From Parcubacteria group bacterium (GTDB taxonomy: Bacteria; Patescibacteriota; Patescibacteriia; Buchananbacterales; UBA6539), in contig NYZP01000001.1 in NCBI GenBank assembly GCA_002687175.1, positions 149,607 to 213,606 on the forward strand: a stretch of DNA of 64,000 bases, written 5' to 3'. The notes beneath the pieces were generated by a model. The model made no database searches and had not been told where the DNA came from. It saw nothing but the letters and a program-made list of their open reading frames with translations. The position numbers and the translations under genes were made by a program. Of this stretch, positions 3,300 to 46,656 are shown piece by piece (positions within the stretch are counted from its first letter, which is position 1; each line of letters starts with the position of its first letter).

Positions 3300-5852
3300 T
3301 TACTCAACACCTCCATCAATTATCCCACCGGTAGTTTCATTGCTTGGACTACTTTTACGAAATTTAAGAAAATAAACAAACAACACGATGCCAGCGATAG
3401 TAAAGATAAAAGCCAATATGATGTAAATAAAAATTTGTTTACTTTGAGCACTGCTACGGGCAGATCGTTGAGCGGCAATAAATTCTTCTGGTGAAACCGC
3501 TTTAGCTTCTTCAATCAAAAAACTCAACGGATTACTCTTAGCAATAATCTTGCCTGTATTATCATTAACTGTCAGATAAATTTCGTGCTTACCGTCAACC
3601 AATGATCGTTGTAAGGTATATTCCCAGTTACCAAACTTATCTACATTGACCGTTACTACCAGAGGTAAATCACTATAAATATAAAGCGTCACGACACTAT
3701 CAGGAAAAGCTAATCCAGAAAATTTTTGGACTGTTATCCCCTCGGCGGCAAGTTTCACATCTTCAACATTTGTCACAATTAATTGACGGGAGATTGCTCC
3801 AGCTACTTTCGGCTGCTCGATGATTGCTTTATTAACTAACGCCTGCTCTGCCGGGGTTAAGTTGATTAGTAGATCACCACCGCCAGAGGGATTAAGATTT
3901 TTTCTTAATTCATCACCGTCAATAAACCCATCAGAATCAGTGTCCGCCAAAAATGGATTTGTTCCCAAACGACGTTCAATTTCATCGGATACTCCATCAC
4001 TATCACTATCAAAAATAATTACTGCCGAGGGAGTTTGCACTATTTCGTCGCGTTCGTTTAATAAAACCTGACTAACAGATGGTAGCAAAGTTATATTTGT
4101 GTCATCTTCAATAACAATTGGTACAAAATTTTCTATGCTATCTTCGGCCACTTCCTCGGTAACCTTTTGCAGGGTTACCGTTTGATTATTATTTTCTAGA
4201 ATTATTTCTTCAATAATTTGGTTCTGCTGCTGAATAATAATAAGATCATTTAAATGTCGTTCACGAAGTGCTCGGCTACATGTTTGGTCGTCCAGACCAT
4301 TGCAAGTAACGTCTGTTGCGTAGGTTTCTAAAATATGATCTTGACAAGCATCCACATCTGTTTTATCGGCCAAAGAACATTCTACATCAAGATATTGTTC
4401 ATTTAAATACTCATCACAGACACTCTGGTCAAGGATATTTGCACTCAAACATTCAGGTGATAAATAAAGTCCCGCTAAATAAATATCACAATCATCAACT
4501 GAACTAATATTTGCCTGACGACATTCATCTGGCAAAAAAGTATTTTTCAAAAACTGGTCACACTGTTCTTGATTTGTTATATTTGCTTCGATGCATTGTT
4601 GAGGAAGTAGGTTTTCTGGTGAGTCATCAATTAGTTGATTACTAATCTCAAATAAAAATCTGTTACAAGCATCGAAATCTACAATACCAGCAATAGCACA
4701 CTCTTCGGCAATCTCCGGATTAACCCTGTCCGGTTCTGGTTCTGGTTCCGGCTCTGGTTCTGTAGTTGATTCATTAAATTCCGTATCATCTTCCGGACTG
4801 TCACAATCAAAATCAACTAAATCGGTGTACCCATCACCATCGTTATCAAAACCGTCGGAACACTGTGTTGTTGTCTCTGGTTCTGGCGGTGGCGGTGGCG
4901 CTTCGGTTGGTTCATTAAACTCGTTATTATCTTCCGAATTGTCACAACCTGGATCATTAAGATCTATCAAGCCATCACCATCATTATCAATATAATCTGC
5001 ACAGGCAGTAACAAGAGTCGTAATAACATTTTGAATGTTAAAATTAATCTGGCTGCTAGCAAAATCTGGCGGATCATTAATAATCGCTTCGGCCAATAAA
5101 TTGTATGAACCGTCAGAAACACTATTAGTATCATATAAAATTTCCCAGCTTTCATCAGCTAACTGACTGGCAGAGCCAAGTGGTATATTACCAATACCAC
5201 TGACTAAAACAAAAGACAAAGAGTCAACTGGAATATTTGTTTCAGCATTAAATATTGTAATACCAGAAACTGTTGCTTCATTAACTGGTTCTTTAATTGT
5301 CACAGCAAGAGATTCCGTGATTGGGTTAGAAACTTCAACTGAAATTGGATCACTCCGGTAGGGGGATCCATCACTATCATCATAGGCAACTATAGTTATT
5401 GAGTAAGATTGATTAATCTCTCCTTCTGTCGACCAAACACCCTCCCAAAAAATATCATTCAAAGTTGTTGAAAGACGATAAACGCTTTCAGATTCTATCT
5501 CAAATTCAACATTTATCGGTTCTATCCCAAAAACTGTTGCCGAAAGTTCTTCTAGACCGGTGAGGATACTACCCTCAATTGGTGTTATAAAGGTAAATTC
5601 AACTGCGCCAGAACTAGAAAAACTACTTACATCAAACTCCTCATTATCTTCCAGGCTGACACAACCTGGATCATCTGGATAATCAATGAAACCGTTACCA
5701 TCATTATCAATGCCGTCTGTGCATTCGGTAAGTGTATTAGTACTTTGGGCAAATAAAATAGGGGTTGGTAAGACCCCAAATAAAGTAGCCAAAACAGCTA
5801 ACAAAAAAATAAAAAAAGTTGTATAAACTAGCTTAGATACAAACCTACTCAT
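3300..5852 (-). CDS. Large secreted/cell-surface protein with signal peptide, Asp-rich Ca-binding-type repeats, five tandem ~22-aa Cys repeats and a C-terminal TM anchor
   Basis: N-terminal signal MSRFVSKLVYTTFFIFLLAVLA. Three copies of C-x-DG-x-DNDG-x-G-x-x-D...PGC, a PEPEPEPEP linker, DTDSDGFIDGDE (thrombospondin-3-like) and repeats of C-x9-11-C-D-x-(F/Y)L. C-terminal hydrophobic helix plus basic tail. Confidence 0.6.
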   Translation of the reverse strand: MSRFVSKLVYTTFFIFLLAVLATLFGVLPTPILFAQSTNTLTECTDGIDNDGNGFIDYPDDPGCVSLEDNEEFDVSSFSSSGAVEFTFITPIEGSILTGLEELSATVFGIEPINVEFEIESESVYRLSTTLNDIFWEGVWSTEGEINQSYSITIVAYDDSDGSPYRSDPISVEVSNPITESLAVTIKEPVNEATVSGITIFNAETNIPVDSLSFVLVSGIGNIPLGSASQLADESWEILYDTNSVSDGSYNLLAEAIINDPPDFASSQINFNIQNVITTLVTACADYIDNDGDGLIDLNDPGCDNSEDNNEFNEPTEAPPPPPEPETTTQCSDGFDNDGDGYTDLVDFDCDSPEDDTEFNESTTEPEPEPEPEPDRVNPEIAEECAIAGIVDFDACNRFLFEISNQLIDDSPENLLPQQCIEANITNQEQCDQFLKNTFLPDECRQANISSVDDCDIYLAGLYLSPECLSANILDQSVCDEYLNEQYLDVECSLADKTDVDACQDHILETYATDVTCNGLDDQTCSRALRERHLNDLIIIQQQNQIIEEIILENNNQTVTLQKVTEEVAEDSIENFVPIVIEDDTNITLLPSVSQVLLNERDEIVQTPSAVIIFDSDSDGVSDEIERRLGTNPFLADTDSDGFIDGDELRKNLNPSGGGDLLINLTPAEQALVNKAIIEQPKVAGAISRQLIVTNVEDVKLAAEGITVQKFSGLAFPDSVVTLYIYSDLPLVVTVNVDKFGNWEYTLQRSLVDGKHEIYLTVNDNTGKIIAKSNPLSFLIEEAKAVSPEEFIAAQRSARSSAQSKQIFIYIILAFIFTIAGIVLFVYFLKFRKSSPSNETTGGIIDGGVE

Positions 5853-6350: not shown

Positions 6351-7190
6351 TCAGGAATATTGACCGCGTTGATCTTCTGGTAGCATCTCGGCAATAACCT
6401 TTGCAACCTGATCAGCTTGTTTTTTTAGTTCTTGATGAACTTGGCTAAATTGTTCTCTTTCTTCTGGGCTAATTTTTTCACGATTTTTTCTTTTTTCTAA
6501 AACCTCCTCGATAATACTAACGTCAGTCTCCGGTAAATCAATAATATCTCCAACGTGATAGATAGCCTCTGCTCTCTTGGCTACACCCTTGGCCAATTCA
6601 AGTGGTCCTTCTAAATTAATTGAACCGCCTTCCAGTTCTAAGGCAGTGGGAATGATTTTAGCTCCGGTTTTGTGTGCTAAATATACTGAACCAATTTTTG
6701 GATCTTGCATTTCCTCTTCAAGGGTGAAAGGATGAATAGCCATCCAGGGGGTTTTGCCGTCTTCAATTTGTTCGGAAAGTAACTTAAAATCGTCAGGATT
6801 AAAAACTCCATGTTTCCCCTTTTTGGTTTTTTTATATTGTAAAGAAGTGAATTGATCTTTACCGGCTAGTCTAAAAAGCACTTCTTGTGGCGTTGCACCA
6901 CGCAGAACTGATTCGGTAGTAATCTGAATATCGAGTTTATCTCCTAAAGCTTTAATTGCCGCGGGGGCATCAAGGTTAGAAATATGTGAAGACGCCACTA
7001 TAAATTTCGAATCCGGTTCAACTTCCTGAATTTGTGTTAAATTTTCCTTACCATCAACCGTAAATTCCTTACAAAAAAGACCAAGAACTTTATCAACTTT
7101 ATTGCGTAAAGCCTCGTTAGTAACATTACTTTTTGCCTCTTTTGGTTGATTAGCTTCTGGAGGAATATAACTGGGAGTCTCTGGAGTCAT
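6351..7190 (-). CDS. Putative lysophospholipid/glycerolphosphate acyltransferase family protein (HX4D motif)
   Basis: VASSHISNLDAPAA contains H-x4-D. No other strong motif. TGA stop. Confidence 0.35.
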   Translation of the reverse strand: MTPETPSYIPPEANQPKEAKSNVTNEALRNKVDKVLGLFCKEFTVDGKENLTQIQEVEPDSKFIVASSHISNLDAPAAIKALGDKLDIQITTESVLRGATPQEVLFRLAGKDQFTSLQYKKTKKGKHGVFNPDDFKLLSEQIEDGKTPWMAIHPFTLEEEMQDPKIGSVYLAHKTGAKIIPTALELEGGSINLEGPLELAKGVAKRAEAIYHVGDIIDLPETDVSIIEEVLEKRKNREKISPEEREQFSQVHQELKKQADQVAKVIAEMLPEDQRGQYS

Positions 7191-8855: not shown

Positions 8856-8907
8856 AATGGTAGTAGATGTTCATCAATGTTTTTATATACTACTGGAGGA
8901 TTTTCTC

Positions 8908-9027
8908 ATGCATACGGACAGCTACTATCGCACATTTGGTAGGCAAAAACGCAGTCCACTCGATTTTTCCTTCGGGATTTATCACTTCTTCAGAAATTGG
9001 AGAGAAATAATTGGACTAAAGCCATAA
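8908..9027 (+). CDS. Candidate small basic/aromatic protein of 39 aa (or sRNA) with its own promoter, SD and terminator
   Basis: GGAGG at 8895-8899 is 8 nt upstream of the ATG at 8908. Product MHTDSYYRTFGRQKRSPLDFSFGIYHFFRNWREIIGLKP. Followed by the hairpin AGCGTC-tctcgaca-GACGCT plus a T-run. Confidence 0.3.
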   Translation: MHTDSYYRTFGRQKRSPLDFSFGIYHFFRNWREIIGLKP

Positions 9028-9140
9028 ATCCGAATGGATCCACTCGGCACAAAGCGTCTCTCGACAGACGCTTTTGCCATCTGTAAAATACAAGACGCCT
9101 ATTATTAAAAGGCTGTTTTTTTATTTCATTATCATTTGCT

Positions 9141-11969
9141 TTAGTATCTCAACATCCTTTTTAAGTATTTTCCAGTATAACTCCACTTGGCACACTTAGC
9201 TATTTTTTCTGGAGTACCTTCAGCAATCACCCGTCCACCTTTGTCGCCACCTTCTGGTCCCAGATCAATTACCCAGTCAGCACATTTAATGACATCTAAA
9301 TTATGCTCAATTACTACCACAGTATTACCTTTGTCGGTTAAGCGATACAAAACATTTAATAATTTATTAACATCATCAAAATGTAATCCAGTGGTTGGTT
9401 CATCTAAAATATACAGAGTATCACCACCTTTACGAGAAAGTTCGGAAGTTAATTTAATGCGCTGGGCTTCTCCTCCAGACAAAGTGGTGGCTGGCTGACC
9501 TAAAGTAATATAACCAAGCCCTACATCAAACAGTGTTTGTAATTTATTTTTGATGGCTGGAATATTTTGAAAAAATACCAGGGCTTCTTCAACCGTCATT
9601 TTTAAGACATCAGAGATGTTTTTATTTTTATATTTAATTTCCAAGGTATCTTCATTGTATCTTGTGCCTTTACATTTTTCACACTCAATGTAAACATCCG
9701 GCAGAAAATTCATCTCAATTTTTTTAACGCCATCACCTTCACACTCTTCACACCGTCCGCCATGAACATTAAATGAAAACCGCCCAGGTTTATAACCTCG
9801 AGTTTGGGCTTCTTTAGTTTTAGCAAATAATTCTCTAGTTGGTGTAAACACTCCAATATAAGTAGCTGGGTTAGATCTTGGTGTCCGGCCAATTGGTGAC
9901 TGGTCAACAATAACCGCTTTTTCTAATTTTCCAAATCCTTTAATTTCTTTATGCTTACCTGGTTTATCGTTTGTCGCCCAAAATATTTTGTATAAAGATT
10001 TATATAAAATATCGTTTATCAAACTACTTTTACCTGAACCGGAGACACCGGTAACACAGGTTAAAACTTTTAATGGAATTTTAACGTTGATGCTTTTTAA
10101 ATTATTCTCTTCAGCCTCAAAAATTTCTAAATAATCAAAAGCTCTACGTCTCTTCTCCGGAATTATAATATTTTTTTTATTACTGATGTAATCTCCGGTA
10201 ACTGAATTTTTAGCTTTAGCAATATTCTTGGGATCTCCCGAAAAAACAACTTCCCCACCGTGAATCCCTGCTCCTGGACCTAAATCAATAACATGATTGG
10301 CGGCATGGATAGTTTCTTCATCGTGTTCGACTACCACTACCGTATTTCCTAGGTCACGTAATTTTTTTAAGGTACTTATTAACTTTTCATTGTCTTTTTG
10401 GTGTAAACCAATTGATGGTTCATCTAAAATATAGAGTACTCCGCGAAGTTCTGAACCAATTTGAGTAGCTAAACGTATTCTTTGGGCTTCACCACCAGAT
10501 AAAGTCCGAGCACTACGAGCTAAGTTCAAATAATCTAGGCCAACATTAATTAAAAACTGCAACCGACTATAAATTTCTCGTAAAATTAGCGTGGCAATGA
10601 TCGTTTCTTGTTTATTGAGCTTTAAATCCTTAAAAAATTTTAATAACTTATCAATTGATAGCTCACTGATTTGCCAAATATTTTTGTCACCGACAGTGAC
10701 CGCTAAAATTTCTGGCTTTAATCTTTTACCGTCACAGGTTTGACAAGGTCCAGTACGCATATACTTTTCAATTTCCCGACGACGATACTCTGACTCCGTT
10801 TGATTATATAATCTTTTCAGTTGAGGAATAACACCTTCAAACTTACCGTACCAGTTATAGCTTGATCCTGTTTTGCTGGAGCTTAGATTAAATCTCATTT
10901 CTTCATCTGACCCATTTAAAATGATGTTCTGGACTTTTTTAGATATATCTTTCCAGGGAGTGAACATATCAAAACCATGTTTATCGGCCAAACCATCCAG
11001 CAACTGTTTGCGCCAACCCTCGCCATGGGTTTGCCATGGTCTAACAGCACCTTCAGATAATGATAAATTTTCATTGGGTATTACTAATTCTTGATCAACA
11101 CTTTGTAAGAAGCCGAGACCGTGACACTGTTCACAGGCACCAAATGGTGAGTTAAAAGAAAATGACCGCGGTTGAAATTCTTCCATCGAAATACCACAGT
11201 CCAAGCAGGCATTGTGTTGGGAAAATAATTTTTCTTTCTTGCCCACTATAGCCAAAATCAAACCATCGGCTTCGTGCAACGAAGTTTCTACCGCTTCCGA
11301 CAACCTATTGTTTATTCCTTTTTTTAAAGCCAAACGATCAACAATTATTTCAATATCATGTTTGACCTGTTTGTTAAGTTTAATTTTATCGCCATCAGAT
11401 AATTCATAAACTTTATTATCAACACGTACCCGACTAAAACCACGTTCCTCGAAATCTTTAAATAACTGTTCATATGTCCCTTTTTTGCTTCTGATAACCG
11501 GTGCTAAAATCTGTACCTTTGATCCTATTTTTTCTTGCAACAAAATTTTGGTAATAGTTTCCGCTGATTGTGAGTAAATTCTTTTCCCACACTTTGGGCA
11601 GTGCGGTACTCCCACTCGAGCATAAAGTAAACGCAGATAATCAGAAACTTCAGTAATGGTACCAACCGTTGATCGCGGATTCTTGGAAATTGATTTTTGT
11701 TCAATCGAAATGGCTGGAGATAAACCCTGAATCTTGTCAACGTCGGGTTTATTCATTAAGCCCAAAAACTGCCTGGCATAAGCTGACAATGATTCAACAT
11801 AGCGACGCTGACCCTCTGCATATAAAGTGTCAAATGCTAAAGTTGATTTGCCTGAACCAGACAAACCAGTAATTACGGTTAATTCATCGATTGGAATTTC
11901 AACGTTAATATTCTTAAGATTATGCTCTCTGGCACCTTTTATAGATATTTTATTACTGTTCTTGGACAT
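9141..11969 (-). CDS. uvrA: Excinuclease ABC subunit A (UvrA)
   Basis: [35 protein letters not shown]. Two ABC modules with LSGGE signatures and zinc-finger Cys pairs. 942 aa. Confidence 0.95.
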
Positions 11970-11983
11970 AATTTAACTTTTCA

Positions 11984-12012
11984 TTGACAATTTAATTAAT
12001 TTATGATATAGT
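11984..12012 (+). promoter_or_regulatory. Near-consensus sigma70 promoter, TTGACA-N17-TATAGT
   Basis: TTGACA at 11984-11989, a 17-nt spacer, TATAGT at 12007-12012. AAGGAG lies 9 nt before the ATG at 12060. Confidence 0.5.
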
Positions 12013-12059
12013 GCGTAGTTAAAATAGAAACTAAAACGTTCTTCAAGGAGATCTTTAAC

Positions 12060-12533
12060 ATGATTACGTTCATGGAGAAGCCCGCTACACAAGAGGTAAT
12101 TACTCCTACTCAAGCCAGAGACAGGATCTCAAACAGGGAAACGCTCAGCGGTTTTAAGATCAACGGTGATCTGGACCTACGAGGTCTTAGAACTCCTGGA
12201 CATCTGAACATTCGTGGAGTCACCATCGATGGCGATCTCCTGCTTACTGGGGCAAACATTGGCCAAGGCCTAGATATTGGCGATGCCGATGTTTGGGGTC
12301 TAGTCAATCTTTCTCGGATCAATGTCGGCGGAAAACTTTTCCTACTTGGTACTAAAGTTGGCACATCGTTGAGCTTGTTTCGAGCCACCATCGTTGATGA
12401 CATCAATCTGCATAAAGCAGAAGTGGCTGGCATGATCGACCTAACCGGTACAAACATCGTATCTGGAAAATTAATCACCGGCAATATGCAAGTTGGTCGT
12501 GTCCACGGAGGTGTTGCTCTCTTGGCTTCTTAG
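12060..12533 (+). CDS. Pentapeptide-repeat-like protein of atypical (higher) G+C
   Basis: Continuous 5-residue periodicity (GDLDL RGLRT PGHLN IRGVT IDGDL LLTGA NIGQG LDIGD ADVWG LVNLS RINVG ...). GC-rich codons (ctg, ggc, atc), unlike the flanking uvr genes. Confidence 0.55.
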   Translation: MITFMEKPATQEVITPTQARDRISNRETLSGFKINGDLDLRGLRTPGHLNIRGVTIDGDLLLTGANIGQGLDIGDADVWGLVNLSRINVGGKLFLLGTKVGTSLSLFRATIVDDINLHKAEVAGMIDLTGTNIVSGKLITGNMQVGRVHGGVALLAS

Positions 12534-12560
12534 TCATCTGGCAAAAACACGCCACATACC

Positions 12561-12600
12561 CCCTCAATGAATTTTATTCGTTGAGGGTTTTTATTTTTAT
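12561..12600 (+). terminator. Intrinsic terminator
   Basis: CCCTCAA-tgaattttattcg-TTGAGGG followed by TTTTTATTTTTAT. Confidence 0.55.
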
Positions 12601-12602
12601 AA

Positions 12603-12690
12603 TTTTTCTTTCAACTTTTCAACCTTATCTCTTAACTCAATAGCCTTTTCAAAATCTAACTCTTCAGCGGCAGCGGTTCTCCGGTAGCAG
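12603..12690 (-). repeat. Diverged duplicate of the uvrB 3' end (UVR-domain remnant) just downstream of the uvrB stop
   Basis: The minus strand in the +1 frame reads ..AAAEELDFEKAIELRDKVEKLKEKL*. The authentic UvrB C-terminus (12697-12790) reads ..AAEELDFEKAIDLRDKIDSLKNKLK*. By eye the DNA is about 70-75% identical. Confidence 0.6.
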
Positions 12691-12696
12691 ACTTCG

Positions 12697-14673
12697 CTAC
12701 TTTAATTTATTTTTTAAACTATCAATCTTATCTCTAAGGTCTATGGCTTTTTCAAAGTCTAATTCTTCCGCCGCCACTCGCATCCGCCCTTCCAGATCTA
12801 AGATCACTTTATCAAGTTCCAGCTCTTTTCCTTTCTCTCCTGGCTCAATCACCACTTCTTCTTCAGCAATAGCTTTAACTATTGATTTTGGAGTAATACC
12901 GTGTTTTTTATTATAATCTGCTTGAACTTTACGACGACGGTTAGTTTCATTGATCGCATCTCTGATTGAACCAGTCTGACGGTCAGCATACATGATAACC
13001 CGGGAATGAACATTTCTGGCCGCCCGACCACTGGTTTGAATCAAACTCCTGGTATTACGTAAAAAACCTTCTTTGTCAGCATCCAAAATTGCCACCAGGG
13101 CCACTTCCGGAATATCCAAGCCTTCTCGTAACAAATTAATTCCCACTAAAACATCATACTTGCCAACTCTAAAATCTCTAATTATTTTAATTCGTTCCAT
13201 TGATCCAATATCAGAATGCATATAAACCGCTTTAATGTCATTATCAATCAAATGATAACTTAAATCCTCGGCCATTCTTTTGGTTAAGGTAGTTACTAGG
13301 GTACGGTGACCCTTCCTGATTACTTTTTTAATTTCTGTCATCACATCATTAATTTGTCCATCAACCGGTTTAATGGTAATTGGTGGATCAATTAGGCCAG
13401 TTGGTCGTACTACTTGCTCAACAATTTTTTTACTATTTTCAATCTCGTAATCTCCGGGGGTGGCAGAGGTGTAAATTACATGATGTAAATATTTCTCAAA
13501 CTCCTTAAACTTTAACGGTCTATTATCTAATGCACTGGGTAAGCGAAACCCGTAATCAACTAAATTTTCCTTTCGGGCTCGATCACCATTATACATTCCA
13601 TGAACTTGGGGAACACTTTGATGACTTTCATCAATGACAAACAACCAATCTTTTTTAAAACGATAATTAAAAAAATCTAGCAATGTGTAAGGTGGTTCTC
13701 CAGGCTGACGATTGTCAAAATGACGAGAATAATTTTCAATCCCTTTACAATAACCAAGCTGTTCAATCATCTCTAAATCATAATTTGTTCGTTGTTTTAA
13801 ACGATGAGACTCAACCGTATCAAGTTTTGGTAAACGCTGCTTTAACTCTTTTCTAATTGATGATAAGGCCTTAGGAATTCGTTCACTGGGTACGACAAAT
13901 GGTCTAGCCGGATATATCCAAACATCTTTTAAATCTTCTAGCTTTTGTTTGGTCATGGCCTGAATTTTAGTCAGCTTATCAACTTTGTCACCTAGTAAAT
14001 TAATCCTGATTAAATAGTTACTGGCATAACCGGGGAATAGATCGATCGTGTCACCTTTAGCTCGAAATAATCCTGGTTTAACTTCCATATCATTTCGCTC
14101 ATACTGAATTGAGATTAATCTACTTAGTAATTCTTGGCGATCTATTTTTTGACCTTTTTTTAAATAGAAACTTTCATTTTCAAAATCTTGTGGTTGACCA
14201 AAGCCATAAATGCACGAAATAGACGAGACAATAATAACATCATCTTGCGACAGCAATGAAGTGGCTGCTTCTAGCCTAAGCTGCTCAATCTTTTCATTAA
14301 TATCGGCATCTTTTTCAATATAAGTGTCCGAAGCTGGCAAATAACTTTCTGGTTGATAATAATCATAATAAGAAATAAAATAATTAACTTTATTGTCTGG
14401 AAAAAATGTTTGAAATTCTTGATAAAGTTGAGCCGCTAAAGTTTTGTTATGAGATAGTACTAGAGTCGGCTTTTGAATTTTATCAATAACATTAGCAATA
14501 GTATAAGTTTTACCAGATCCGGTCACACCTAAAAGCGTCTGATTACTATTTTTATTATAACCAGACACCAATTGTCTTATCGCCTTAGGTTGATCTCCTC
14601 TAGGGGGGTTAGCTTTGTTTAACTGAAACTTAGACATATTAAGCTTAGAGGACCGCAAGCGAGTCCCCTTCAA
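12697..14673 (-). CDS. uvrB: Excinuclease ABC subunit B (UvrB)
   Basis: LLGVTGSGKTYTIANVI Walker A, helicase motifs and a C-terminal UVR domain. 658 aa. Confidence 0.95.
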   Translation of the reverse strand: MKGTRLRSSKLNMSKFQLNKANPPRGDQPKAIRQLVSGYNKNSNQTLLGVTGSGKTYTIANVIDKIQKPTLVLSHNKTLAAQLYQEFQTFFPDNKVNYFISYYDYYQPESYLPASDTYIEKDADINEKIEQLRLEAATSLLSQDDVIIVSSISCIYGFGQPQDFENESFYLKKGQKIDRQELLSRLISIQYERNDMEVKPGLFRAKGDTIDLFPGYASNYLIRINLLGDKVDKLTKIQAMTKQKLEDLKDVWIYPARPFVVPSERIPKALSSIRKELKQRLPKLDTVESHRLKQRTNYDLEMIEQLGYCKGIENYSRHFDNRQPGEPPYTLLDFFNYRFKKDWLFVIDESHQSVPQVHGMYNGDRARKENLVDYGFRLPSALDNRPLKFKEFEKYLHHVIYTSATPGDYEIENSKKIVEQVVRPTGLIDPPITIKPVDGQINDVMTEIKKVIRKGHRTLVTTLTKRMAEDLSYHLIDNDIKAVYMHSDIGSMERIKIIRDFRVGKYDVLVGINLLREGLDIPEVALVAILDADKEGFLRNTRSLIQTSGRAARNVHSRVIMYADRQTGSIRDAINETNRRRKVQADYNKKHGITPKSIVKAIAEEEVVIEPGEKGKELELDKVILDLEGRMRVAAEELDFEKAIDLRDKIDSLKNKLK

Positions 14674-29553: not shown

Positions 29554-30120
29554 CTAGTTAACAATCAAAGTTCCTTCCATGCTACCATGGCCTGAGCCAC
29601 AAAAAACTGAACAGAAAAACCTGAAGCTACCAGATTTATCAGCCACAAACTCAATAGTGGTTATTTCACCAGGATTTAGATCTGAATTAACCCCAAATTC
29701 AGGAATGGCAATGCCGTGTTTTACATCGATACTGTTAATAATCATTTTAACGGTATCGCCTTTATTGACCGTAATAGTTGATGGTACAAAATCCCACTGT
29801 TTGGCTACCATGTCAAAGGTCTTTATGGTTGATACTGGATCATTATCACCGGCAACATCTTCGGGGTCAGGTGGCGGTGGCGGTGCTGTATCAAGATTAG
29901 CATCACCATCGGCTTCGGGATCAGGTGGCGGTGGTGGATTATCAGTTAATGGAAAATCACCGTCTGTTTCGGGATCAGGTGGCGGTGGTACATTGTCGAG
30001 ATTACCAGCTTGATCGCCCCCAGTGCCGGTAGCATCATTATTCGCCGTTCCCTGGTTTAAACAACCACTGATCACCAATCCAGTGATTAATAAGCTGAAA
30101 AGTAAGAAAAATTTTTTCAT
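29554..30120 (-). CDS. Cupredoxin-like lipoprotein with CuA-type ligand motif
   Basis: Lipobox LITGLVISGC, Pro-rich PPPPDPE repeats, C-terminal FFCSVFCGSGHGSMEG (C-x3-C-x3-H-x2-M). Confidence 0.5.
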   Translation of the reverse strand: MKKFFLLFSLLITGLVISGCLNQGTANNDATGTGGDQAGNLDNVPPPPDPETDGDFPLTDNPPPPPDPEADGDANLDTAPPPPPDPEDVAGDNDPVSTIKTFDMVAKQWDFVPSTITVNKGDTVKMIINSIDVKHGIAIPEFGVNSDLNPGEITTIEFVADKSGSFRFFCSVFCGSGHGSMEGTLIVN

Positions 30121-42469: not shown

Positions 42470-42497
42470 TTTGACCGTTGATTGGACTCGAACCAAA
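42470..42497 (-). other. Orphan tRNA 3'-end-like fragment (T-arm plus acceptor 3' strand), possible att-site remnant
   Basis: The minus strand reads TTGGTTCGAGTCCAATCAACGGTCA (GGTTCGAGTCC T-loop motif) with no matching 5' half nearby. Confidence 0.35.
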
Positions 42498-42522
42498 AAT
42501 TTTTACTAAAATAAGCCATCCG

Positions 42523-42594
42523 CTCCGAGGGCCGGATTCGAACCGGCAACCAATTGATTAACAGTCAACTGCTCTACCATTGAGCTACCTCGGA
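42523..42594 (-). tRNA. tRNA-Asn(GTT), copy A
   Basis: Minus strand reads TCCGAGGTAGCTCAATGGTAGAGCAGTTGACTGTTAATCAATTGGTTGCCGGTTCGAATCCGGCCCTCGGAG. Anticodon loop is CUGUUAA. Confidence 0.85.
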
Positions 42595-42683
42595 GCACAT
42601 GGCTCATTTTTTACTCTATTGCGCTATATTCTAATTTTAAAGTCTTTGACGGAAACCGGTCGGTCAGAAACGCTTCCGGTCTC

Positions 42684-42755
42684 CTCCGGGGGTCGGATTC
42701 GAACCGACAACCAATTGATTAACAGTCAACTGCTCTACCGTTGAGCTACCCCGGA
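42684..42755 (-). tRNA. tRNA-Asn(GTT), copy B (variant stems)
   Basis: Same fold with compensatory changes (CCCCGGA..GTCGG/CCGAC). Confidence 0.8.
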
Positions 42756-42845
42756 GCACATGGCTCATTTTTTTGCTCTACAAACTATATTTTAAATTTT
42801 CAAGCCCCTGACAGGAACCGGTCGCTTTGGAAAGCGTCCGATCTC

Positions 42846-42917
42846 CTCCGAGGGCCGGATTCGAACCGGCAACCAATTGATTAACAGTCAACTGCTCTAC
42901 CATTGAGCTACCTCGGA
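42846..42917 (-). tRNA. tRNA-Asn(GTT), copy C
   Basis: Identical to copy A. Confidence 0.85.
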
Positions 42918-42957
42918 ACTTAATTCTCCTTAATTACTTTTACCTTCTAAACCTTGA

Positions 42958-46185: not shown

Positions 46186-46208
46186 CTATAAATATTTATT
46201 AAGAACAA

Positions 46209-46247
46209 AGCGGAGGGGTGCCAGAGTGGTCGAATGGGACAGTCTTG
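46209..46247 (+). repeat. Exact 39-nt duplicate of the 5' half of tRNA-Ser(TGA), truncated inside the anticodon loop
   Basis: AGCGGAGGGGTGCCAGAGTGGTCGAATGGGACAGTCTTG is identical to 46541-46579. The copy ends after CTTG of the anticodon loop and is followed by two GC hairpins (CCCGCC-agag-GCGGG and TCCGCC-ttcg-GCGGA). Confidence 0.85.
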
Positions 46248-46295
46248 CCCGCCAGAGGCGGGTCCGCCTTCGGCGGAAAAACAACTACCTTGAGT

Positions 46296-46580
46296 ATGCC
46301 TTGCACTTATATTTTATATAGTAGGTCAACCAACAAATTTTATACTGGATCAAGCAGAGAAAAAGCCGCTAATAATCGTTTAAAATCACATAACGCCGGA
46401 AAAACTAAATCGACAAAAGCTGGCCGTCCCTGGATAATTATTCATCAAGAAAAATACCAAAATTATACTGATGCCAGAAAAAGAGAAATTTTTTTAAAAT
46501 CAGGTCAAGGACGCAAATATATTAAAACTTTAAACAGCAGAGCGGAGGGGTGCCAGAGTGGTCGAATGGGACAGTCTTGA
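46296..46580 (+). CDS. GIY-YIG nuclease family protein (~94 aa); its 3' end overlaps the 5' half of tRNA-Ser
   Basis: MPCTYILYSRSTNKFYTGSSREKAANNRLKSHNAGK...RPWIIIHQEKYQNYTDARKREIFLKSGQGRKYI gives the GIY...YIG...R...E...N pattern. Confidence 0.55.
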   Translation: MPCTYILYSRSTNKFYTGSSREKAANNRLKSHNAGKTKSTKAGRPWIIIHQEKYQNYTDARKREIFLKSGQGRKYIKTLNSRAEGCQSGRMGQS

Positions 46581-46630
46581 AAACTGTTGAGGCAGCAATG
46601 TCTCCGTGGGTTCGAATCCCACTCCCTCCG
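46544..46630 (+). tRNA. tRNA-Ser(TGA)
   Basis: GGAGGGG-TG-CCAGAGTGGTCGAATGGG-ACAGTC-TTGAAAA-..., long variable arm, GTGGGTTCGAATCCCAC T-arm. No encoded CCA. Confidence 0.85.
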
Positions 46631-46656
46631 CTCTGCTGTTTATTTAACTTATAAGA

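What the first reader, a model, noticed from the sequence alone, without database searches (positions are those of the whole stretch)
11984..12790. Island between uvrA and uvrB carrying a pentapeptide-repeat gene and a diverged duplicate of the uvrB 3' end
Immediately downstream of the uvrB stop lies an ~90-bp remnant. In the +1 frame it encodes AAAEELDFEKAIELRDKVEKLKEKL*, a second UVR-domain C-terminus. It is about 70-75% identical to the real uvrB 3' end, so it is an old or foreign copy rather than a recent tandem duplication. Together with the GC-rich pentapeptide cassette, this is the signature of an element that inserted into the uvrB 3' end and supplied a replacement 3' end, or of recombination with a foreign uvrB.
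Basis: seen in the sequence. Interest (0 to 1): 0.7.

Follow-up and report, generated by a model that had tools for sequence, protein, structure and literature searches.

The report
Silent foreign-type uvrB end after uvrB
Right after the DNA-repair gene uvrB of a marine candidate-phyla-radiation bacterium sits an untranslated second copy of the gene's last 25 codons that evolved as a working gene end in another lineage, a recombination scar that recurs at uvrA/uvrB gene ends in related bacteria.

Summary
A 78-nt silent copy of the uvrB 3' end (12597-12674, minus strand, +1 frame) follows the uvrB stop after a 22-nt spacer. It matches the working end at 55 of 72 nt, and the locus is identical in five assemblies. 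It is not a decayed tandem duplicate: synonymous sites are near saturation (pS 0.71) while replacements are rare (pN 0.13), and its peptide passes Pfam UVR. The two ends therefore diverged as working gene ends in separate lineages and were joined recently. The best reading is one-sided (homology-facilitated illegitimate) recombination with foreign uvrB-region DNA. Which copy was imported is unresolved.

An integrase-type island is not supported: both copies lie on the same side of the cassette and no recombinase is nearby. The cassette ORF (12060-12533) is a compositionally atypical beta-solenoid with its own promoter and terminator, only distantly related to Pentapeptide_3 proteins.

In relatives, uvrB-uvrA adjacency is conserved, but the spacer runs from 20 nt to 3.2 kb with varied cargo. 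Eleven of 29 Patescibacteria lineages carry silent uvrA or uvrB end fragments, and no other gene does. The 5' cases adjoin one conserved ~125-nt hairpin element.

The parts
12697..14637 (-). uvrB, intact (646 aa)
   Evidence: Translation. Identical protein P0001 is annotated excinuclease ABC subunit B and carries the UvrB Pfam set.
12697..12816 (-). Working UVR-domain 3' end of uvrB, including the TAG stop. The part duplicated in the remnant is 12703-12774.
   Evidence: Pfam UVR 34 bits, profile positions 1-36. Repeat family D6.
12675..12696 (-). Junction spacer CGAAGTCTGCTACCGGAGAACC. It is unique, relatively GC-rich and only weakly structured.
   Evidence: Unique in the window and absent from the other loci. 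Fold z-score -1.45.
12597..12674 (-). Silent uvrB 3'-end remnant (AAAEELDFEKAIELRDKVEKLKEKL plus TAA). It is in the +1 frame and has no start codon.
   Evidence: Pfam UVR 30.4 bits. 24/24 aa identical to the UvrB end of relative L083, with 17 synonymous nucleotide differences. Scores 87 bits on a profile of 61 relatives' UvrB ends, where the relatives themselves score 78 +/- 8.
12561..12597 (+). Intrinsic terminator of the cassette ORF: a 12-pair stem followed by a T run. It lies 8 nt beyond the remnant's stop on the other strand.
12060..12533 (+). Cassette ORF (157 aa), a small beta-solenoid repeat protein convergent with uvrB.
   Evidence: Called as a gene in three assemblies. No Pfam hit of its own. 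HMMER homologues to E 4e-28 carry Pentapeptide_3. AlphaFold2 best-model pLDDT 89; the best PDB match is a pentapeptide protein, but weak (E 7e-3, TM 0.32). GC3 z = 2.7.
11984..12012 (+). Sigma-70-like promoter of the cassette ORF: TTGACA, 17 nt, TG-TATAGT. An AAGGAG ribosome-binding site lies at 12046-12051.
   Evidence: Sequence.
9141..11969 (-). uvrA, intact (942 aa), downstream of uvrB on the same strand.

Best explanation
The remnant is a scar of recombination between this genome and uvrB-region DNA from a different, fairly distant Patescibacteria lineage.

A linear foreign fragment was probably taken up by natural transformation. It was fixed by a homologous crossover in a conserved uvr gene at one end and by an illegitimate join at the other. 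This is homology-facilitated illegitimate recombination.

The illegitimate join did not fall at the homologous position. As a result, two orthologous uvrB 3' ends now lie in tandem. The first is contiguous with the gene and is translated. The second, behind the stop codon and out of frame, is silent.

Two polarities fit equally well:
- (a) The anchor was in uvrB. The working end plus about 22 nt of donor flank was imported, and the native end was displaced downstream.
- (b) The anchor was in uvrA. The remnant arrived as the left edge of a fragment that also brought the terminator and the beta-solenoid cassette.

What is shown: the two copies diverged under purifying selection, the remnant shows no detectable neutral decay, and the architecture recurs at uvr gene ends in relatives. 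What is inferred: the uptake route, the type of junction and the polarity.
For: 1. Divergence pattern. pS is 0.71 against pN 0.13 (dN/dS 0.07; Fisher p 1e-4). A model with a neutrally drifting remnant predicts pN >= 0.58 (P = 2e-12).
2. The remnant is not decayed. It scores 87 bits on the profile of 61 relatives' UvrB ends, above its own working end at 80. It is 24/24 aa identical to L083's end. Only about 0.1% of copies given 4 random substitutions keep that score.
3. Both copies have their own stop at the homologous position, so the second copy was never an in-frame extension.
4. The same arrangement arose independently in L003, L014, L106 and L169, with pS 0.58-0.99 and pN 0.09-0.30. In L005 the two copies are identical over 80 nt.
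5. Mirror-image silent 5' fragments occur for uvrA (L003, L012, L168, L169, and weakly L014) and for uvrB (L006, L083, L087).
6. No other gene end among 1519 (3' scan) and 1270 (5' scan) ORFs shows this pattern. This fits a need for a highly conserved anchor.
7. The uvrB-uvrA spacer is a turnover site. It ranges from 20 nt to 3.2 kb with unrelated cargo.
8. Natural competence with homologous recombination has been demonstrated in cultivated Patescibacteria (PMC10633639). Displaced 3' ends explained by this mechanism are described for T6SS and Rhs loci (PMC5361080).
Against: - No donor and no pre-insertion allele was found. The nearest UvrB anywhere is 76% identical, so neither junction could be compared with an empty site.
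- The donor is diverged to synonymous saturation, which should make the homologous crossover inefficient.
- Experimental homology-facilitated illegitimate recombination usually deletes recipient DNA rather than leaving short duplications (own knowledge).
- Breakpoints recur. uvrB remnants start at (E)KAIE in L003, L014 and L169. uvrA remnants all end after GAREH and are followed by CCCGCC. A conserved hairpin element sits at the 5' junctions. Random illegitimate joins do not predict either feature, so a site-specific component may be missing from this model.
- No mosaic signal is visible in GC3 along uvrB or uvrA.
Confidence: 0.55

Rival explanations
1. Nuclease-triggered end replacement. A selfish endonuclease cassette, or another site-specific activity, cuts near the ends of uvrA or uvrB. 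Repair from an invading resistant allele copies a replacement gene end plus flanking hairpin, leaving the native end as a silent fragment. The nuclease gene has since been lost at this locus.
For: - Breakpoints recur and one hairpin element family lies at the junctions in relatives.
- In this same window, a 5' fragment of tRNA-Ser(TGA), GC-rich hairpins, a GIY-YIG ORF (Pfam E 3.7e-11) and then the complete tRNA form the same architecture, with a nuclease gene between the two copies.
- DUF559 nuclease genes directly flank uvr genes in L005, L008 and L009, with another about 1.6 kb beyond uvrA in L013.
Against: - No nuclease ORF lies between or beside the two uvrB copies in the window, or in any of the other five uvrB 3' cases.
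- The window has no DUF559 gene, and its spacer lacks the hairpin element.
- No cleavage specificity is known for these proteins.
Confidence: 0.17
2. Integrase-type island. A site-specific integrative element targeted the uvrB 3' end and carried a replacement end in its attP, as prophages e14 and 21 do at icd. The pentapeptide-like cassette is its cargo, or its body was later deleted.
For: The gene end is duplicated with a diverged, functional-type copy. The neighbouring cassette is compositionally atypical.
Against: - The copies are adjacent and both lie on the uvrB side of the cassette, whereas att copies should flank the element.
- No remnant lies distal to the cargo in any of the 169 loci.
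- The longest exact shared run is 9 nt.
- No integrase lies within +/-4 kb.
Confidence: 0.08
3. In situ tandem duplication of about 103 nt, by slippage or as a long target duplication around a small insert, followed by divergence of the untranslated copy.
For: L005 shows that such duplications do arise: a 127-nt unit repeated, with 80 nt identical. The geometry resembles 'insertion with long target duplication' (PMC2853133).
Against: - The synonymous-biased divergence and the undecayed remnant reject it for the window (P 2e-12).
- The closest relatives lack the copy, so an ancient duplication kept under selection is also unlikely.
Confidence: 0.03
4. The second UVR segment is functional. It would be reached by a +1 frameshift at AAG-UAG-C and give an alternative or extended UvrB C-terminus, which would explain its conservation.
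For: The +1 frame is open from the codon overlapping the stop through to the remnant. L169 is also open in +1 and L106 in frame 0. dN/dS is low.
Against: - There is no slippery site.
- The frame is inconsistent across lineages, and it is blocked by stop codons in L003, L005 and L014.
- The remnant is absent from the closest relatives.
- It has no start codon of its own.
Confidence: 0.03

Closest known systems
Homology-facilitated illegitimate recombination during natural transformation (Acinetobacter, Streptococcus pneumoniae, Pseudomonas stutzeri; cited in PMC5361080 and PMC3240628)
   Same: One conserved anchor plus one non-homologous join lets foreign DNA enter. The outcome is additive rather than a clean replacement. 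Competent hosts are involved.
   Different: The known cases were shown experimentally, with close anchors and usually with recipient deletions. Here the process is inferred from sequence, the donor is diverged to synonymous saturation, and the outcome is a short duplication of a gene end.
Displaced 'orphan' 3' ends at Rhs, CDI and T6SS effector loci (PMC5361080)
   Same: An incoming module with a conserved 5' part supplies a new 3' end and shifts the old 3' end downstream, where it persists as a silent fragment.
   Different: Those loci diversify toxin and immunity pairs under strong selection. Here the gene is a housekeeping repair gene, both ends encode nearly the same peptide, and no selective payoff is evident.
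Insertion with long target duplication (PMC2853133)
   Same: Direct repeats longer than 30 bp occur at an insertion without mobility genes, mostly in naturally competent species, and often overlap a gene's 3' end.
   Different: Those repeats flank the inserted genes and are near-identical (for example 44/46 and 417/423). Here the copies are 22 nt apart, lie on one side of the cassette, and are only 76% identical.
Integrative elements that restore the target gene's 3' end (e14 and phage 21 at icd; tRNA-targeting islands). From own knowledge.
   Same: A diverged but functional replacement end, plus a leftover native end.
   Different: This requires an integrase, an identical core, and copies at the two ends of the element. 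None of these is met here.
Free-standing homing-endonuclease genes that carry a duplicated end of the invaded gene (for example fungal mitochondrial atp6). From own knowledge.
   Same: A foreign gene end is fused in frame and the native end is left as a pseudogene fragment. The tRNA-Ser/GIY-YIG locus in this window looks like this.
   Different: No endonuclease gene lies at the uvrB junction.

Membership tests
UVR domain (Pfam PF02151): identity of the remnant | Profile score above the gathering cut-off | tested here: met
   30.4 bits against 21.5, profile positions 12-36 of 36.
Homology-facilitated illegitimate recombination scar | One of the juxtaposed segments is of foreign (xenologous) origin | tested here: met
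   pS 0.71, pN 0.13, in situ model P 2e-12. The remnant is undecayed.
Homology-facilitated illegitimate recombination scar | One homologous junction in a conserved anchor and one illegitimate junction at a microhomology | tested here: inconclusive
   The junction was mapped to 12675-12696, but no empty-site or donor sequence exists to define the microhomology. No mosaic signal in GC3.
Homology-facilitated illegitimate recombination scar | The host takes up and recombines DNA | not testable with these tools
   Pilus genes (PilM, a pilin) lie upstream. Competence has been shown only for Saccharibacteria (PMC10633639).
Integrase-mediated island with a replacement 3' end | A tyrosine or serine recombinase gene in or beside the island | tested here: not met
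   Neighbouring genes within +/-4 kb carry only PilM, pilin, DJ-1, Pyr_redox, PTP, glutaredoxin, UvrB, UvrA and UvrC domains.
Integrase-mediated island with a replacement 3' end | The two gene-end copies flank the element and share an identical core | tested here: not met
   The copies are 22 nt apart on the same side of the cassette. The longest identical run is 9 nt. No distal remnant occurs in any locus.
Insertion with long target duplication | Near-identical direct repeats longer than 30 bp flank the inserted genes | tested here: not met
   76% identity, and only 22-25 nt lie between the copies. This feature is met only in relative L005.
Diversity-generating retroelement (template and variable repeats) | Mismatches confined to adenines of one copy, with a reverse transcriptase nearby | tested here: not met
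   The differences include C/G, T/G, T/C and G/A in both directions. No reverse transcriptase is among the neighbours.
Pentapeptide repeat protein (cassette ORF) | Pfam pentapeptide model above threshold, with a right-handed quadrilateral beta-helix | tested here: inconclusive
   No Pfam hit of its own at E<=10. Homologues with E 4e-28 to 1e-10 carry Pentapeptide_3. The model is a beta-solenoid (pLDDT 89), but the match to pentapeptide protein 6fls is weak (E 7e-3, TM 0.32).
Homing-endonuclease cassette | A nuclease ORF between the intact gene and the displaced fragment | tested here: not met
   None at uvrB. It is met at the tRNA-Ser locus, 46201-46631.

The most novel reading that the evidence does not exclude
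In this clade of Patescibacteria, the ends of uvrA and uvrB are specific targets of an undescribed end-replacement process. A small structured element, or the nuclease or recombinase that acts on it, enters the terminal 11-26 codons of the gene together with a replacement gene end from the donor. This leaves the native end as a silent fossil.

The element has CCCCGCC...GGCGGGG arms. The ~125-nt version has a CGCCTTCGGC core and is found only upstream of uvrA and uvrB starts.

The window's remnant would be one such fossil whose element has been lost or reduced to the 22-nt spacer.
Probability: 0.2. Interest if true: 0.75.

Novelty: new variant of a known kind. Interest (0 to 1): 0.5.

Why it matters
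Silent but undecayed gene-end fossils are direct, datable evidence of recent DNA exchange between deeply diverged, uncultivated candidate-phyla-radiation lineages. Such exchange is otherwise hard to show from metagenome-assembled genomes.

The pattern hits 11 of 29 lineages, only at uvrA and uvrB. It has recurrent breakpoints and a conserved structured element. Either very conserved genes act as preferred landing pads for illegitimate integration in these small genomes, or an unrecognised site-specific element targets the nucleotide-excision-repair genes. Both possibilities can be tested by genome-wide scans and by transformation experiments in the few cultivable Patescibacteria.

For annotation, it is a warning that short 'second C-termini' behind conserved genes are recombination scars, not genes.

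Tried and rejected
- Assembly artefact: rejected. Five assemblies are identical.
- In situ duplication plus decay: rejected by codon-based counts and by a neutral-decay simulation.
- In-frame ancient duplication later truncated: rejected, because both copies carry their own stop at the homologous position.
- Diversity-generating retroelement: rejected. The mismatches are not adenine-specific and no reverse transcriptase is nearby.
- Known RNA family: none in 11800-12900, nor in the relatives' element.

Polarity tests led nowhere:
- Identity of each copy to 28 relatives: 49.9 against 50.9 of 72, Wilcoxon p 0.17.
- Sister pair L168/L169: 39 against 41 of 54.
- Host codon usage fits both copies.
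- GC3 profiles along uvrB and uvrA show no mosaic.

Searches for a close relative or a population variant found nothing above 76-80% identity. This covered genome contigs, metagenome contigs and two protein searches.

Other checks that gave nothing:
- Whether the working ends of remnant-bearing lineages form one recently spread unit: they do not.
- The 22-nt spacer matches nothing else.
- Cluster look-up of the cassette's homologues gave no taxonomy.
- The word-indexed protein search missed all cassette homologues. Only the exhaustive HMMER search found them.
Full report
**What is there.** The window comes from a marine member of the Patescibacteria (candidate phyla radiation).
- Its UvrB is identical to a protein annotated from a 'Parcubacteria group bacterium' MAG, and it occurs on Tara Oceans contigs.
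- The nearest relatives, Buchananbacteria-like MAGs, reach only 74-76% UvrB identity.
- uvrB (12697-14637) and uvrA (9141-11969) lie on the minus strand, separated by 727 nt.
- Reading in the uvrB direction, that spacer holds:
  - the TAG stop;
  - 22 nt of unique sequence (12675-12696);
  - a 78-nt stretch (12597-12674) that reads AAAEELDFEKAIELRDKVEKLKEKL-stop in the +1 frame;
  - a hairpin that is the intrinsic terminator of a convergent gene;
  - that gene itself (12060-12533, plus strand);
  - its near-consensus promoter (11984-12012).

- The remnant aligns without gaps to the working uvrB end at 55 of 72 nt. Shuffles give 31 +/- 1.6 (maximum 39), and the other 53 long ORFs of the window give at most 42.
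- Its peptide passes the Pfam UVR gathering threshold: 30.4 bits, covering the C-terminal two thirds of the motif.
- The kilobase around it is 100% identical in three long, independently made assemblies and two short contigs.

**It is not a decayed tandem duplicate.**
- Of the 24 aligned codons, nine differ only synonymously and five differ in amino acid, mostly conservatively.
- Nei-Gojobori counts give pS 0.71 and pN 0.13, so dN/dS is about 0.07.
- If the untranslated copy had drifted neutrally for half of that synonymous distance, pN should be at least 0.58. The observed value has P = 2e-12.
- The remnant differs from the consensus of 61 relatives' UvrB ends at two conservative positions. 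It scores higher on their profile (87 bits) than the window's own working end (80) or the average relative (78 +/- 8).
- It is 24/24 identical in protein to the end of relative L083, while differing from it at 17 of 72 nucleotides.
- Four random substitutions preserve such a score in about 0.1% of trials.
- Both copies end with their own stop at the homologous position, so the second was never an in-frame extension.
- The conclusion is that the two ends diverged as functional gene ends in different lineages and were brought together recently.

**Surroundings in relatives.**
- The uvrB-to-uvrA order on one strand is conserved in 39 distinct lineages among the loci fetched. The 29 closest have at least 58% UvrB identity and are mostly Patescibacteria.
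- Among those 29, the spacer ranges from 20 nt to 3.2 kb. Its cargo is unrelated between lineages: DUF559 nucleases, a phosphatase, membrane proteins and small antisense ORFs.
- The site is therefore a turnover spot, and the compact state exists.
- No homologue of the window's cassette ORF sits at this site elsewhere.

**The cassette ORF.**
- It has no Pfam hit of its own.
- An exhaustive HMMER search finds 125 proteins at E <= 1e-10. These are mostly large repeat proteins, and all seven that were scanned carry Pentapeptide_3.
- A single-sequence AlphaFold2 model is a confident beta-solenoid, with best-model pLDDT 89. Its match to solved pentapeptide proteins is weak.
- Its GC3 of 0.45 is 2.7 SD above the window's ORFs.
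- 'Pentapeptide-like beta-solenoid, probably acquired' is a fair label. 'Pentapeptide-repeat gene' is not strictly shown.

**The same scar recurs.**
- A profile scan of all six frames of 1.69 Mb of fetched loci finds a second uvrB-end motif in five further lineages: L003 (=L084), L005 (=L085), L014, L106 and L169.
- The second motif always lies 90-150 nt behind the first on the same strand. It never lies beyond the cargo.
- In L003, L014, L106 and L169 the pairs again show saturated synonymous and low non-synonymous divergence. In L005 the two copies are identical over 80 nt.
- In L003, L014, L106 and L169 a strongly folding GC-rich hairpin lies between the stop and the remnant. For L014, L106 and L169 the fold z-scores are -3.6 to -5.8.
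- In three lineages the remnant starts at the same codon, (E)KAIE.
- A matching scan of 5' ends found silent uvrA starts in L003, L012, L168, L169 and (weakly) L014. All end after GAREH. It also found silent uvrB starts in L006, L083 and L087.
- In both scans (1519 and 1270 ORFs) the top hits are exclusively uvr genes.
- In total, 11 of the 29 lineages carry at least one such fragment.

**A conserved element at the 5' junctions.**
- Between the 5' fragments and the intact genes lies a ~125-nt element with CCCCGCC...GGCGGGG arms and a CGCCTTCGGC core.
- The same family lies upstream of uvrB in three lineages and upstream of uvrA in two.
- Its 13-bp outer stem shows some compensatory changes.
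- It has no Rfam match, and a covariance model found no further copy in 430 kb.
- The window itself has no copy. Its 22-nt spacer is only weakly structured.

**Mechanism.**
- The topology excludes a classical integrative island. The two copies are adjacent and on one side of the cassette, share no core longer than 9 nt, and have no recombinase nearby.
- The best-supported explanation is additive recombination with foreign uvrB-region DNA, with a homologous crossover in a conserved uvr gene and an illegitimate join at the other end. This process is known from naturally transformable bacteria. It has been invoked for displaced 3' ends at T6SS and Rhs loci (PMC5361080; PMC3240628).
- Natural competence has been demonstrated in cultivated Patescibacteria (PMC10633639).
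- A survivorship argument, which is inference, explains why most pairs are highly diverged. Identical direct repeats are quickly lost by recombination, while 75%-identical ones are stable.
- Which copy is the import could not be decided. Comparisons with relatives, a sister-pair test, codon usage and composition profiles were all uninformative. No close relative or population variant exists in any collection searched.
- Displacement of the native end needs only the gene itself as an anchor, and it would explain fragments at all three kinds of uvr end. Arrival with the cassette explains the remnant's position next to the cassette terminator. I give these two polarities similar weight.

**What remains unexplained.**
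- Random illegitimate joins do not predict the recurrent breakpoints, the hairpin elements at the junctions, or the restriction to uvr genes.
- A site-specific component is a serious alternative, for example a nuclease. The window itself offers a parallel: a tRNA-Ser 5' fragment, GC-rich hairpins, a GIY-YIG gene and then the intact tRNA (46201-46631). DUF559 nuclease genes also flank uvr genes in four relatives.
- No nuclease gene lies at any of the uvrB 3' junctions, however.
- Recoding of the second UVR segment is unlikely. Its frame is inconsistent across lineages and is often blocked by stop codons.

**Verdict.** The 'integrated element including the pentapeptide cassette' half does not. 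As a single locus it is a modest recombination scar of a known general kind. The recurrence at uvr gene ends across the clade makes it a new variant worth a systematic survey.

Noticed in passing
window 46201-46631 (+): The first 37 nt of tRNA-Ser(TGA) plus about 10 nt upstream (46201-46247) are 94% identical to 46533-46579. They are followed by GC-rich hairpins, a small GIY-YIG ORF (46296-46550, Pfam E 3.7e-11) and then the complete tRNA-Ser (46544-46631). The break lies in the anticodon loop. This looks like a nuclease gene inserted at a tRNA gene together with a duplicated or replacement 5' half.
   Followed up: partly
L083 2300-2427; L006 5859-5983; L087 4859-4986; L003 8326-8452; L112 7290-7416: A conserved ~125-nt structured element with CCCCGCC...GGCGGGG arms and a CGCCTTCGGC core. 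It lies 25-60 nt upstream of the uvrB or uvrA start in five lineages. In four of them a silent 5' fragment of the same gene sits just upstream. It has no Rfam match, and a covariance model finds no other copy in 430 kb. It could be a uvr-specific leader or a mobile element.
   Followed up: partly
L168 3029-3135; L169 7213-7326; L003 8289-8330; L012 8774-8816: Silent uvrA 5' fragments (ATG through ...GAREH) that all break at the same codon and are followed by CCCGCC. In L168 the fragment starts 8 nt after the uvrB stop. The 60-nt spacer element is 57/60 identical between L168 and L169, although their genes are about 80% identical.
   Followed up: partly
L166 ~3590-3720; L169 ~7040-7175; L005 ~8890-9100; L095 ~2150-2290: A conserved long inverted repeat (ATCCGTAGCAACGAAAAGG ... 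CCTTTTTCGCTGCTACGGAT, with compensatory changes) followed by TTTGTCAAG. It lies upstream of uvrA in four lineages and may be a terminator or operator plus the uvrA promoter. No Rfam or tRNA hit.
   Followed up: partly
L008 8029-8340; L009 8006-8350; L005 5605-5946; L013 13120-13422: DUF559 (Vsr-like endonuclease, Pfam E 7.5e-37) genes near uvr genes in four relatives. Two lie right after uvrB, one right before uvrB, and one about 1.6 kb beyond uvrA.
   Followed up: partly
L001 and L002 (short Tara contigs), ending at window 12616 and 12607: Two independent low-coverage contigs from different samples both end inside the remnant. This could be chance, or a branch in the assembly graph caused by strain variants at this junction.
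   Followed up: no
window 42472-42918 (-): Three tandem tRNA-Asn(GTT) genes in about 161-nt units. The units are 63-85% identical.
   Followed up: no
window 12683-12701 (+): A 6-pair hairpin (GGTAGC...GCTACT) overlaps the uvrB stop codon and is followed by a T-rich run on the plus strand. The scan scored it as terminator-like. This is probably coincidental.
   Followed up: no
window 4735-5731 and 29848-29997: Diverged internal direct repeats with periods of 141 nt and 54 nt, apparently inside coding regions for repeat proteins.
   Followed up: no
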